Virus record (IMG/VR): IMGVR_UViG_2713896791_000011
Reading direction: 5' to 3' (one strand)
Origin: a virus
Taxonomy: Duplodnaviria; Heunggongvirae; Uroviricota; Caudoviricetes
DNA length: 15,351 nt
The position numbers are program-made. Positions 12,001 to 15,000 of this stretch are shown one piece after another. Each line of letters opens with the position of its first letter. Within the stretch, counting starts at the first letter, position 1.

Positions 12001-15000
12001 TGCTGCTCCCAGAAATCCGCGCCCGCCCAGCGGTCAGAACGCAGGGCAAGACCGATTTCCACATTGGCGTGTTTTGACATGAAGCCACGAAATGCTTCCT
12101 CACCAGCCTCCCGGGCTTTACGGTACTCCCGGTACAGAAAGGCCTCATCCACCGAATAACCGAGATTCGGGTTAACCATGGCGAGGTTTTCCATCAGCAG
12201 GTGAGCCCCGCTTTCCACCATTTCAGGAGGATGCTCAAAAATCACCGGCAGAAAGTGCGGATCATGAATTTTGCCGTCACGGACATCCCGGGCATACTGC
12301 AGTTTCTGTCTGAACACCCCGGCGGGCGGTTCATTCGACTGGGTGGTCGTATACACCACAAACCCTTCCGGACGGGAGGCAAGCCCGCCGATGGCTTCAC
12401 GTAGCATGTCTTCCGCCTTGTACTGCTTGCCAAACAGCCACAGTTCATCAATCAGTGTCCCCACGGACTTGATACCGGACACCGTATTCGGATCGGCTGC
12501 CACCACCTTCAGGGTGGTGTCCGTCACCCGATGGGTGATGGTCCGGATATGGGTCTGCACCTGACAGAGGTCATCCAGATCATCGTCCCGTCGTACCATA
12601 TCCCTGGCAGGGTTGAAGGCGTTAGCCGCCACCTCCACGGTCGGGGCCAGAATGGTGTAGCCCGCCGCCTGCCGCCAGTTCAGTAACAGCGCCGTCATCA
12701 TGATCCCCGCAGCCAGCGTGGACTTCGAGTTTTTCTTGGGGATAAGGATAAACACTTCCTTGATATGGCGAACACCGGTCTGCGCATCGTAGGAGCCAAA
12801 CAGGGCCGCCACCAGGTCAAACACCCACGGTGCACAGGACTCCCCGAATGTCGGGCTACCCGGTGCATCCACAATTCGCAGTTGTTTAAAAATCGCCAGT
12901 GCATGTGCAGCCTGGTCCGGATAAATCGGAGCCGGAATAATCGACAGCCCCTTTTTCAGGCGCTCTGCCCAGTCCGGGCAGGCCGTGCTCCACACAGGTA
13001 TCATCCGTTGCCCTCATTATCATTATTCACCACCAGGCGGGGTGGTGGTGGCACCGCAAAACGGTTAGCCGCTTTTTTCGCCGCGTCACCTTTTGCCGAT
13101 TTTTTACCGGCATCCCCTTTTTTATGGTGCGTGAACTGCGCCAGCTTATAAGCCGCATCCAGCGCCAGCCTGGGGTCGGTATTAATGTTCTCCACCAGAA
13201 GACGCCCCATCGCTTTCACCGGATCGGGAAGACCATCCTCCATATATTCAATACCAGGAGACATCACCGCGGACGGTGGCATCTCCGGATTGTTTTCGTC
13301 CGGCTGTGGTATTGCAGCCGCCTCACGGCGACGGGGTTTATCCTCCTGCTCTGATTTTTTCTGCCGGTAAACAGGAACCTCATCCACCTCCACCGTCTCG
13401 CATTGTTTACGGGCTATAAACGCAAGCACCTCCGGATCTTTTGCCAGCTGCGAGCCTTTAACCCTGGCGGTCTTCGCCGAATAACCAGCGGCAATGGCTG
13501 ACGCTGTTTTGTTTTTCCCGGACATGAGCGCCAGCGCAAATTTTCGTTTTTGCGTTGTCAGCACAGCCTCCTCCCGGGTCCAGAACGCACTCAGCCGGGT
13601 ATGGTTCAGCCCATTTTTCCCGGCGTCTCATGCCGCAAATGTTAACTGCTGCCTGGTTAACATTTGCTGAAAAAGCCAGTTAACATTTTTTCCGCACAAC
13701 AAACTGAATAATAAAGATAAAAACCGCAAAAATGCCCGGACAGCCAGTTAACATGTTAACTGCCCTGAAACGGGAATTTTTTCTCTGCGTGAGAGGGGGG
13801 GCGGTGTCCAAAGCGATCTTTTTTTACGCCGGATGATACCCCCCCGGGTCGGGTTACAGTCCGATGATGTCGTCCGCTCTGCCACTACCTCCGGACACCT
13901 CCGGCAGCGTCGGGTCTGGCATACCACTCGCCGCTTCACGAGCAGACTTTTGTCGATGGCATTCGGTACAGAGCGTCCAGAGATTCGTCTNNNNNNNNNN
14001 NNNNNNNNNNNNNNNNNNNNNNNNNNNNNNNNNNNNNNNNCATTCGGTACAGAGCGTCCAGAGATTCGTCTCCTCATTACCACCACCGAACTGAAGTGCA
14101 ATGCGGTGCTCAAGTTCACTGTCACAAAGGTCAACCACACGCCCACAGAGACAGCACTGTCCGGCATCCCTCAGCCAGATACGACGCTTGAGGGAAACCC
14201 GGGCACTACCACTGACCCGACGCTGTTCACCCTTCAGGACATTCACCCGCCGGGTGTTCAGAGTTTTGATTCTGCCCGGTAACGTACGAAGCACAGCCAT
14301 GTAAAATCCTCTCCATATAGCTTGTCACCAGAGGAAAGAAAATGTCATCGAAAAACCGGACCCGCAGAACCACAATCCGCAATATCCGTTTCCCCAATCA
14401 CATGATTGAACAGATCAATATCGCCCTTGAACATAAAGGTTCCGGTAACTTTTCAGCGTGGGTTATTGAAGCCTGCAGAAGAAGGCTGTCAACAGAGCGT
14501 TCGGGTATGAATTACATAATTAAGTAACATGGTGTTCACAGAACACACAGTTACCGGACACATCAGTTTTCCATTCGTCCCCCGGCAGTACAGGCTTCCC
14601 GTCTGACGGGATAGCCTGAAAAAACACAGAAAATTATTTGTTATAATTAATATAACTTACTCAAAAAAAAGCGACGAGAAAATCAGCATCAACGAGCAAT
14701 AAGCGCCAATACGTGATAACAAATGGCAGCCATATTTATCTGCAGTATAAGCAATGGACAGGATAACCACACCAGAAACCGTCAGCATAAAATCCATTTG
14801 AACTTCCCCGGACAAAATCGACTCATCTAAAGATTTACAGCTCTTTTTATTATCAATATGTTAAAAGTAAAATAAACAGATGTTCAATAATACGAATACA
14901 AAAACGTGCTGAAAATCAATGAATCCATTTCTGTGTTATCAATTAATAGTGATAAACATCCGGCTTCTTCCACCATCGCACTGGACAGGCGACTATGAGG

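What the first reader, a model, noticed from the sequence alone, without database searches (positions are those of the whole stretch)
14620..14960. Low-GC island with a small hydrophobic peptide ORF and an antisense promoter-like element
About 340 bp of markedly lower GC than the flanking structural genes, with no long ORF. The minus strand encodes a 46-aa peptide with a clear hydrophobic helix (14657..14797). A plus-strand extended -10 (TGTTATAAT, 14639..14647) would make an RNA antisense to its 3-prime end. That layout is reminiscent of type I toxin-antitoxin loci or small membrane morons; highly speculative.
Basis: inference. Interest (0 to 1): 0.5.

Follow-up and report, generated by a model that had tools for sequence, protein, structure and literature searches.

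The report
Small prophage membrane-peptide gene (ECs1538)
The low-GC island holds an already annotated 46-residue membrane-peptide gene of E. coli lambdoid prophages (ECs1538 in O157:H7 Sakai) with a probable promoter of its own, and the proposed antisense promoter, and with it the toxin-antitoxin reading, does not hold up.

Summary
Window 14620-14960 has GC 0.31 against 0.56 for the whole window. It contains a 46-codon hydrophobic ORF (14657-14797, minus) and one TGTTATAAT (14639-14647, plus).

The window is a Sakai Sp6-like lambdoid prophage, and the ORF is the annotated hypothetical gene ECs1538 / WP_000347013.1, present in 734 of 5426 complete E. coli genomes. It lies between the lysis cassette and ylcI/HNH/terminase.

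Three lineages keep the frame, start codon and Shine-Dalgarno sequence, and their replacements are mostly hydrophobic-conservative. Published strand-specific RNA-seq and ribosome profiling of uninduced Sakai show it transcribed and ribosome-covered (98% of the ORF in LB), at about 5-fold the level of the upstream late gene. A 45-nt block upstream is identical in all three lineages and carries sigma-70-like hexamers.

The plus-strand TGTTATAAT is mutated in one lineage and deleted in another. It has no terminator, the RNA it would make is unstructured, and it is only marginally beyond chance.

Best reading: a moron-type small inner-membrane protein gene expressed from the prophage, function unknown. 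The type I toxin-antitoxin reading is not supported. It is an orphan with no relatives outside E. coli prophages. Interest is low.

The parts
14657..14797 (-). 46-codon ORF plus stop codon. It encodes MDFMLTVSGVVILSIAYTADKYGCHLLSRIGAYCSLMLIFSSLFFE, which is ECs1538 / NP_309565.1 / WP_000347013.1. It is predicted to be a two-helix inner-membrane peptide.
   Evidence: -: the ORF and its identical annotated proteins.
- the frame is kept in three lineages.
- the two-helix model.
- RNA-seq and RIBOseq values from PMC5597208 S2/S9 Tables.
14804..14809 (-). Shine-Dalgarno-like GGGGAA, 6 nt upstream of the ATG.
   Evidence: Read directly from the sequence. It is identical in lineages A, A' and B, although the surrounding 14798-14842 is only 63-77% identical between A and B. 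PMC5597208 S4 Table lists an SD for ECs1538 with dG -3.6.
14843..14887 (-). Non-coding block identical or nearly so in all three lineages. It contains candidate promoter P1: -35 TTGAAC (14887-14882), an 18-nt spacer, and -10 TAACAT (14863-14858). The predicted start is about 14851.
   Evidence: -: identity profile is 0.93-1.0 here against 0.63-0.87 in the flanks.
- the alignments.
- best PWM score on the minus strand.
14887..14915 (-). Alternative candidate promoter P2: TTTTCA, 17-nt spacer, TATTAT. The predicted start is about 14880. In lineage B it reads GTTTCA, 17-nt spacer, GATAAT.
14851..14863 (+). Perfect match to the IHF core consensus WATCAANNNNTTR (TATCAATATGTTA). It overlaps the P1 -10 hexamer and lies inside the invariant block.
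   Evidence: it is the only match in the window, with 0.25 expected. One search gives a local probability of about 0.065. Binding is inferred only.
14639..14647 (+). It is probably not functional.
   Evidence: -: present in the window.
- not conserved (CTTATGAC in lineage B, inside a 10-bp deletion in A').
- no plus-strand terminator.
- fold z-score +1.0.
14591..14618 (.). Imperfect 28-nt hairpin (CAGGCTTCCCGTCTGACGGGATAGCCTG) in the variable spacer between the convergent ORF and ylcI. No T-run follows it on either strand, and it is not conserved in lineages A' or B.
14342..14527 (+). ylcI/ynfO-family gene (DUF3950, sequence resembles a ribbon-helix-helix), convergent with the peptide gene. 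It is part of the shared module in lineages A and B and absent next to lineage A'.
14993..15138 (-). GC-rich 3' remnant of an Rz1-like (o-spanin) reading frame that travels with the island. Homology to other prophages ends at about 15138.
   Evidence: -: phrog_6954, E 1.4e-13, matching residues 20-64 only.
- homology boundaries.

Best explanation
The island is a small cargo ('moron'-type) gene of lambdoid E. coli prophages. It is inserted between the last lysis gene (Rz/Rz1) and the ylcI-cos-terminase region.

Its parts are:
- an AT-rich upstream region (about 14798-14992) whose invariant 45-nt core carries a sigma-70-type promoter;
- a Shine-Dalgarno sequence;
- a 46-codon ORF (ECs1538) encoding a helical-hairpin inner-membrane peptide. 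By the positive-inside rule, the K21/H25/R29 loop should face the cytoplasm and both termini the periplasm;
- a variable 3' spacer without a clear terminator.

The gene is transcribed and translated from the repressed prophage. Because it points the same way as the late operon, it is also read during lytic growth.

Shown here:
- the ORF, its conservation pattern and its distribution;
- absence of the antisense promoter in two of the three lineages.

Taken from published data: sense RNA and ribosome footprints in uninduced Sakai.

Inferred:
- which hexamers form the promoter;
- membrane topology;
- the function. My guess is a lysogen-expressed membrane factor acting on the host envelope or on incoming phage (superinfection exclusion or similar), rather than a toxin held in check by an antisense RNA.
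For: Identity:
- The peptide is identical to annotated ECs_1538 in Sakai prophage Sp6, and the gene order matches the window.
- RefSeq annotates it in O103, O157, O104 and other strains.

Coding:
- Lineages A, A' and B (72-91% aa identity) all keep the frame, the start and the SD. The only start-codon variant is ATG to GTG, and indels occur only in the terminal T8 run.
- For A versus B, dN/dS is 0.28, with 12 synonymous and 13 non-synonymous changes (binomial P 0.008). The other five frames carry stops.
- A simulation that keeps the transition/transversion ratio gives P 0.04 for hydropathy conservation and 0.014 for all criteria combined.
- Sequence similarity between lineages collapses within about 15 nt after the stop codon.

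Expression (PMC5597208, strand-specific, uninduced cultures):
- ECs1538 in LB: RPKM 57.6 for RNA and 26.1 for footprints, RCV 0.46, 98% of the ORF covered.
- The upstream late-operon gene ECs1536 has 10.1 and 6.7.
- The same paper predicts inner membrane with 2 TM helices, and a BPROM promoter with LDF 8.0 against a mean of 3.43.

Promoter: the invariant block 14843-14887 holds the best minus-strand sigma-70 score.

Moron features:
- GC is 0.31 against 0.56.
- 734 genomes carry the island, whereas 1607 match the flanks.
- K-12 DLP12 and Qin carry other cargo between Rz and ylcI/ynfO.
- The unit occurs next to three different terminase types.
Against: - Evolutionary depth is shallow: three lineages and 25 substitutions. 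When transition bias is modelled, the count of amino-acid changes alone is not significant (P 0.17). A versus A' shows 5 non-synonymous changes to 1 synonymous.
- ORF length and hydrophobicity are not unusual for this T-rich strand.
- Published read numbers are small: 7 and 4 counts in BHI.
- No promoter start site has been mapped, and the meaning of the BPROM position '248' is ambiguous.
- No terminator was found.
- Function is wholly inferred. There is no homologue with a known role.
Confidence: 0.72

Rival explanations
1. Type I toxin-antitoxin locus. The 46-aa hydrophobic peptide is a membrane toxin, and its mRNA is neutralised by a cis-antisense RNA started from the plus-strand TGTTATAAT at 14639-14647.
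For: - The ORF is small and hydrophobic.
- A perfect extended -10 sits right at its stop codon on the opposite strand, the only one in the window.
- Convergent ylcI transcription could also supply antisense RNA.
Against: - The motif is CTTATGAC in lineage B and falls in a 10-bp deletion in lineage A', while the ORF is kept in both.
- It is present only within the nearly identical lineage A copies, so its presence there says nothing about selection.
- Its local chance probability is about 0.05.
- There is no plus-strand terminator anywhere in 14200-15351.
- The putative RNA folds no better than shuffles, z +1.0.
- No Rfam family matches.
- No trans complementarity of 14 nt or more exists in Sp6 or the window.
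- No Pfam type I toxin family matches at E up to 1.
- The peptide has two helices and no charged tail.
- Copies are single, not tandem.
- Ribosomes cover 98% of the ORF in ordinary LB growth.
Confidence: 0.05
2. The ORF is not a functional gene. The island is an AT-rich spacer or recombination joint, and its T-rich strand happens to give a hydrophobic ORF that is pervasively transcribed and translated. The invariant block is then a DNA site (IHF site or promoter) serving something else.
For: - ORF length and hydrophobicity are expected by chance on this strand.
- There are no homologues anywhere outside E. coli prophages.
- A versus A' has 5 non-synonymous changes to 1 synonymous.
- The non-coding block is better conserved than the ORF and carries a perfect IHF consensus.
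- Rare frameshifted copies exist.
Against: - The frame, start codon and SD are kept across 20% nucleotide divergence. Replacements are hydrophobic-conservative (combined P 0.014), and the other five frames are broken.
- The conserved unit ends at the stop codon.
- The ORF travels with the block into three different genomic contexts.
- Footprints cover 98% of the ORF with RCV 0.46.
Confidence: 0.15
3. The peptide is a late-expressed accessory of the lysis cassette, for example a modulator of the class II holin, the SAR endolysin or the spanins, rather than a lysogen-expressed moron.
For: - In the simplest context (O104:H4, L004) it is the next gene after Rz/Rz1, on the same strand as the late operon.
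- It is a two-helix membrane peptide.
- An Rz1 3' fragment always travels with it.
Against: - It is separated from Rz1 by 195 nt of AT-rich non-coding DNA with promoter-like hexamers.
- Its composition differs from that of the lysis genes.
- It is expressed in uninduced cells at about 5-fold the level of the upstream late gene.
- Most lambdoid lysis cassettes lack it.
- No holin or antiholin family matches.
Confidence: 0.08

Closest known systems
Lambdoid-phage morons (lambda bor and lom, HK97 gp15), as defined by Juhala et al. 2000 and Hendrix (recalled from memory)
   Same: - It is an extra gene inserted between conserved late-region genes.
- Its base composition is atypical.
- It has its own sigma-70-like promoter.
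- It is expressed from the repressed prophage.
- Its product is an envelope or membrane protein.
- It is present in only some related phages.
   Different: - There is no sequence or fold relationship to bor, lom or gp15.
- It is much smaller (46 aa).
- It points the same way as the late operon, unlike bor.
- No terminator was found.
- No phenotype is known.
Type I toxin-antitoxin systems (hok/sok, tisB/istR-1, zorO/orzO, ldr/rdl, ibs/sib)
   Same: The ORF is a hydrophobic peptide under 60 aa, and in lineage A a promoter-like motif sits on the opposite strand.
   Different: - No conserved antisense RNA gene, terminator or structure.
- No match to any toxin family.
- Two helices instead of one helix with a polar tail.
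- Single copy.
- The ORF is ribosome-covered in normal growth.
ybcW of K-12 prophage DLP12 and the other cargo genes between Rz and ylcI/ynfO (borD, ybcV/ydfO, gnsB, ynfN, cspI)
   Same: ybcW occupies the same slot: it points with the late genes and is convergent with ylcI. This shows the Rz-ylcI interval is a cargo hotspot.
   Different: The window shares nothing with the DLP12 and Qin loci beyond ylcI/ynfO (blastn), so the cargo there is different.
Small E. coli inner-membrane proteins found by ribosome profiling or tagging (for example the sets of Hemm/Storz, Weaver et al. 2019, Hücker et al. 2017)
   Same: It is under 50 aa, predicted to be alpha-helical and membrane-embedded, supported mainly by ribosome profiling, and narrowly distributed.
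   Different: It is prophage-borne, has two helices, is an orphan with no relatives outside E. coli prophages, and has never been individually studied.

Membership tests
Type I toxin-antitoxin system | Small (under 60 aa) hydrophobic toxin ORF | tested here: met
   The ORF is 46 aa with GRAVY 1.11 and two predicted helices. This is not unusual for an ORF on this T-rich strand (P about 0.11).
Type I toxin-antitoxin system | Antisense or partly complementary antitoxin RNA gene with its own promoter and terminator, conserved together with the toxin | tested here: not met
   - TGTTATAAT is absent from lineages B and A'.
- There is no plus-strand terminator.
- The fold z-score is +1.0.
- Rfam gives no match.
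- No complementarity of 14 nt or more exists elsewhere in Sp6 or the window.
Type I toxin-antitoxin system | Toxin belongs to a described toxin family (Hok/Gef, Ldr, TisB, Ibs, ShoB, DinQ, ZorO, Fst and others) | tested here: not met
   No hit at E up to 1 in Pfam, NCBIfam, PHROGs or PADLOC. No relatives were found among 1.84 billion representative proteins.
Type I toxin-antitoxin system | Over-expression of the peptide is toxic, and the RNA counteracts it | not testable with these tools
   This needs cloning and induction experiments.
Moron (lambdoid phage cargo gene) | Present in some but not all related phages at the same position between conserved genes | tested here: met
   - 734 of 5426 genomes have the island, against 1607 that match the 1052-bp flanking query.
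- DLP12 and Qin have other genes between Rz and ylcI/ynfO.
- The same unit lies next to three terminase types.
Moron (lambdoid phage cargo gene) | Base composition different from the surrounding phage genes | tested here: met
   GC is 0.314 for the island and 0.397 for the ORF, against 0.562 for the window. It is the only stretch below 0.40.
Moron (lambdoid phage cargo gene) | Own promoter and terminator | tested here: inconclusive
   Two sigma-70-like candidates lie in the conserved upstream region, and RNA rises about 5-fold relative to ECs1536. However, no start site has been mapped and no convincing terminator was found.
Moron (lambdoid phage cargo gene) | Expressed from the repressed prophage | tested here: met
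   This rests on published data, not my own experiment. Strand-specific RNA-seq RPKM is 57.6 and RIBOseq 26.1, with coverage 0.98, in uninduced Sakai in LB (PMC5597208 S2 Table). Read numbers are small.
Class II holin / pinholin / antiholin | Two transmembrane domains with a charged C-terminal tail, about 65-95 aa, a match to a holin family, and a position at the head of the lysis cassette | tested here: not met
   The peptide has two helices but is only 46 aa and ends in FFE. No holin Pfam or PHROG family matches. It lies after Rz/Rz1, and the cassette already has a class II holin.

The most novel reading that the evidence does not exclude
ECs1538 may be a very young, possibly de novo-born membrane microprotein. 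A T-rich non-coding spacer downstream of the lysis genes would have acquired a promoter, a Shine-Dalgarno sequence and an ORF, and is now kept by selection in E. coli prophages. A variant of this reading is that its level is set by convergent transcription from the RHH-like ylcI gene rather than by a dedicated antisense RNA gene.
Probability: 0.12. Interest if true: 0.5.

Novelty: new member of a known kind. Interest (0 to 1): 0.2.

Why it matters
If the peptide has a phenotype, it would add one more lysogen-expressed membrane factor to the prophages of EHEC, EPEC and O104:H4 strains, about 13% of complete E. coli genomes. It is also a clean example of an orphan microprotein with ribosome-profiling support. 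As it stands it is an ordinary uncharacterised prophage cargo gene that annotation pipelines already call. The more exciting toxin-antitoxin reading is not supported.

Tried and rejected
- Rfam at a permissive threshold over 13400-15351 gave only a chance hit (HgcG, E 0.58).
- Pfam, NCBIfam, PHROGs and PADLOC gave nothing for the peptide.
- Word-indexed search of 5.8 billion proteins and exhaustive phmmer of 1.84 billion representatives found only E. coli copies plus spurious repeats.
- GTDB species representatives gave none, by protein pattern or by degenerate DNA pattern.
- tblastn against the phage collection at E up to 10 found two records, both identical to the peptide.
- The metagenome scan returned 58 loci, all belonging to the same three lineages.
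- Foldseek of the AlphaFold2 hairpin against BFVD gave nothing below E 0.3.
- Folding the 5' UTR and the putative antisense RNA showed no excess structure.
- The search for trans-complementary RNA in Sp6 or the window found nothing of 14 nt or more.
- Literature:
  - Nothing came up for WP_000347013 or ECs1538 in main texts.
  - The peptide's sequence, or the gene names around it, did not occur in the held supplements of Fesenko 2024, the EDL933 TSS paper, Tree 2014 or Waters 2016; Sy 2020 has none held.
- The prophage sRNA HnrS was considered and rejected. It is reported in Sp9, Sp10 and Sp12, whereas this island is in Sp6.
- The 40-codon ORF at 14884-15006 (minus) stays open in all three lineages, but 11 of its last 30 residues change non-conservatively between A and B. 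This was read by hand from alignment A3, and the ORF was judged spurious.
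Full report
**Observation**

Window 14620-14960 has GC 0.314 against 0.562 for the whole window. It is the only place where 341-bp windows drop below 0.40. No ORF of 60 aa or more lies between 14528 and 14992.

The minus strand carries a 46-codon ORF at 14657-14797 encoding MDFMLTVSGVVILSIAYTADKYGCHLLSRIGAYCSLMLIFSSLFFE. The plus strand carries TGTTATAAT at 14639-14647, the only TGNTATAAT in the window. So the description is accurate, with three corrections:
- The peptide has two hydrophobic segments, not one. AlphaFold2 gives helices 2-22 and 24-45 at pLDDT 76.
- An RNA from that motif would be antisense to the entire ORF, not only its 3' end.
- The flanking genes are not structural genes.

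None of the three features is improbable on its own:
- An ORF of 46 codons or more appears in about 52% of composition-matched shuffles.
- Comparable hydrophobicity appears in about 11% of random ORFs on this T-rich strand.
- The extended -10 appears in about 5% of local shuffles and 12.5% of whole-window shuffles.

**What the locus is**

The window is a lambdoid E. coli prophage read backwards. On the minus strand it carries terminase large (11343-13004) and small (13001-13564) subunit genes and an HNH endonuclease gene (13854-14300). A ylcI/ynfO-family gene (DUF3950, Pfam E 9e-20) lies on the plus strand at 14342-14527. The end of the lysis cassette lies to the right of the island.

The 1052 bases around the island are 99.5% identical to prophages of O103:H2, O145:H28 and other strains.

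In O157:H7 Sakai the same arrangement is prophage Sp6, and the ORF is ECs_1538 (NP_309565.1), identical in sequence. RefSeq calls it hypothetical protein WP_000347013.1.

The island occurs in 734 of 5426 complete E. coli genomes, usually once per genome. It is in only two records of the phage collection.

**Is the ORF a gene?**

All copies found fall into three lineages:
- A: the window.
- A': 91% aa identity, carrying S14F, C24Y, L36V and E46D.
- B: 72% aa identity, 80% nucleotide identity.

All three lineages keep the ATG, the GGGGAA Shine-Dalgarno sequence 6 nt upstream, and the frame. The only start-codon variant seen is ATG to GTG. Indels are confined to the T8 run in the last two codons.

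For A versus B there are 12 synonymous and 13 non-synonymous differences. dN/dS is 0.28 and the binomial P is 0.008. All five other frames contain stops.

A simulation that keeps the observed transition excess is more sober:
- P 0.17 for the number of amino-acid changes.
- P 0.04 for how little hydropathy changes.
- P 0.014 for all criteria together.

Similarity between lineages falls from 0.8-0.97 to 0.4-0.6 within about 15 nt after the stop codon. The conserved unit therefore ends with the ORF.

**Published expression data**

Hücker et al. 2017 (PMC5597208) did strand-specific RNA-seq and ribosome profiling of uninduced Sakai cultures. They list ECs1538 among the 250 shortest annotated genes with a ribosome coverage value (RCV) of at least 0.25 in LB.

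| Gene / condition | RNA RPKM | Footprint RPKM | RCV | ORF coverage |
|---|---|---|---|---|
| ECs1538, LB | 57.6 | 26.1 | 0.46 | 0.98 |
| ECs1538, BHI | 32.7 | 7.3 | 0.23 | 0.81 |
| ECs1538, cold/salt stress | 2.1 | 0.6 | 0.29 | 0.13 |
| ECs1536 (upstream late gene), LB | 10.1 | 6.7 | 0.68 | 0.35 |
| ECs1539 (186 bp, 61 aa; matches ylcI in position and length), LB | 45.6 | 11.1 | 0.25 | 0.65 |

The supplement passages carry no column headers. I assigned the three blocks to LB, BHI and cold/salt stress from the paper's text and from its S7 Table counts. The same supplements give:
- a BPROM promoter with LDF 8.00 (group mean 3.43);
- an SD with dG -3.6;
- no terminator;
- a prediction of inner membrane with two TM helices.

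Read counts are small (7 and 4 in BHI). This is supportive evidence, not proof, that the peptide gene is transcribed from its own promoter and translated in the lysogen.

**The antisense promoter**

In lineage B the motif reads CTTATGAC. In lineage A' it lies inside a 10-bp deletion. The ORF is intact in both. Its presence across lineage A copies says nothing about selection, because those copies are 97% or more identical.

Further points against it:
- There is no intrinsic terminator on the plus strand anywhere in 14200-15351.
- The RNA it would produce folds no better than shuffles, z +1.0.
- Rfam finds nothing.
- No sequence elsewhere in Sp6 or the window is complementary to the peptide mRNA over 14 nt or more.

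The region downstream of the stop codon, including the hairpin at 14591-14618, is the least conserved part of the module.

**The upstream region**

Between A and B, identity is 63-87% across most of the island but 93-100% in 14843-14887. A' differs there by one base.

This block contains the best-scoring minus-strand sigma-70 candidate: TTGAAC, 18-nt spacer, TAACAT (14887-14858), with a predicted start near 14851. In lineage B the -35 reads TTGAAT.

Just upstream lies a second candidate: TTTTCA, 17-nt spacer, TATTAT (14915-14887). It becomes GTTTCA, 17-nt spacer, GATAAT in lineage B.

If the '248' in the BPROM table is counted within the 300-nt input, it coincides with the first candidate. If it means 248 bp upstream of the start, it does not. 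I cannot tell which.

The block also holds the only perfect IHF core consensus in the window (TATCAATATGTTA, 14851-14863, plus strand), overlapping the -10 hexamer. Binding is an inference.

**Mobility and origin**

The shared module runs from ylcI to about 15138 in lineages A and B. In A' only 14552-15137 is shared, and the ORF is followed by different genes on the same strand and a different terminase, with no ylcI.

The module sits next to HK97-like (HNH plus TerS/TerL) and lambda-like (Nu1/A) packaging genes.

A GC-rich Rz1-like 3' fragment (14993-15138) always comes with it.

K-12 prophages DLP12 and Qin have other cargo between Rz and ylcI/ynfO: borD, ybcV and ybcW in DLP12; cspI, ynfQ, ynfR, ynfN, gnsB and ydfO in Qin. 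This interval is therefore a cargo hotspot.

No relative of the peptide exists outside E. coli prophages in any collection searched.

**Mechanism and rivals**

- Best supported (0.72): a moron-type gene for a two-helix inner-membrane peptide with its own promoter, expressed in the lysogen and also read with the late operon. The function is unknown. My guess is an envelope-acting lysogenic factor such as superinfection exclusion.
- Non-functional ORF in an AT-rich spacer (0.15).
- Late lysis accessory (0.08).
- Type I toxin-antitoxin system (0.05).

**Comparison and novelty**

The locus works like a lambdoid moron (bor, lom, HK97 gp15) and meets three of the four moron criteria tested. The fourth criterion, own promoter and terminator, is inconclusive.

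It fails the defining antisense-RNA criterion of type I toxin-antitoxin systems and matches no toxin or holin family.

The ORF itself is already annotated and has been measured in bulk. What is not known is its function. I rate it a new, orphan member of a known kind, of low interest.

Noticed in passing
window 7396-7445 and 13991-14040 (also single N at 9792 and 9855): Two runs of exactly 50 N are each flanked by a direct duplication (18 nt and 31 nt) of the sequence on either side. They look like unmerged overlapping contig ends at scaffold joins. The second one inflates the HNH endonuclease ORF to 148 aa, against 121 aa in relatives, and repeats TNLWTLCTE.
   Followed up: yes
window 14993-15193 (minus), homology breakpoint about 15138: This ORF matches an Rz-like spanin family (phrog_6954, E 1.4e-13) only from residue 20 onward and has no signal or lipobox region. 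It looks like the 3' remnant of an Rz1 gene carried along with the island by recombination. The resident Rz lies beyond the window end.
   Followed up: partly
window 14342-14527 (plus); Sakai NC_002695.2 about 1,561,382-1,561,567: - The ylcI/ynfO (DUF3950) gene has a sequence that resembles a ribbon-helix-helix DNA-binding protein, with a weak PHROG hit to HicB-like antitoxins (E 0.056).
- The old Sakai gene ECs1539 has the same position and length. Taking it to be ylcI, it shows RNA RPKM 45.6 and footprint RPKM 11.1 in uninduced Sakai.
- The current Sakai RefSeq record lists ECs_1539 as a 90-nt ORF on the other strand instead of the 186-nt gene of the older annotation.
   Followed up: partly
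window 14662-14669 (A8 on plus strand, T8 in the mRNA): This homopolymer run lies in the last codons of the peptide ORF and varies in length among copies (7, 8 or 9). The resulting C-termini are ...FFE, ...FF or ...FLSKLY. This may be sequencing error or real length variation.
   Followed up: partly
window 14797; loci such as L174: One haplotype, seen in 11 loci, has GTG instead of ATG as the peptide start codon. It is the only start-codon change seen, and it is still a valid start.
   Followed up: yes
window 14937-14956: The inverted repeat TTATCA-N8-TGATAA lies upstream of the candidate promoters and looks like an operator. It is present in lineages A and A' but not in lineage B.
   Followed up: no
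window 13565-13853: A 290-bp non-coding gap separates the HNH endonuclease and terminase small subunit genes. By analogy with HK97 (recalled from memory, not tested), this is where the cos site would be expected.
   Followed up: no
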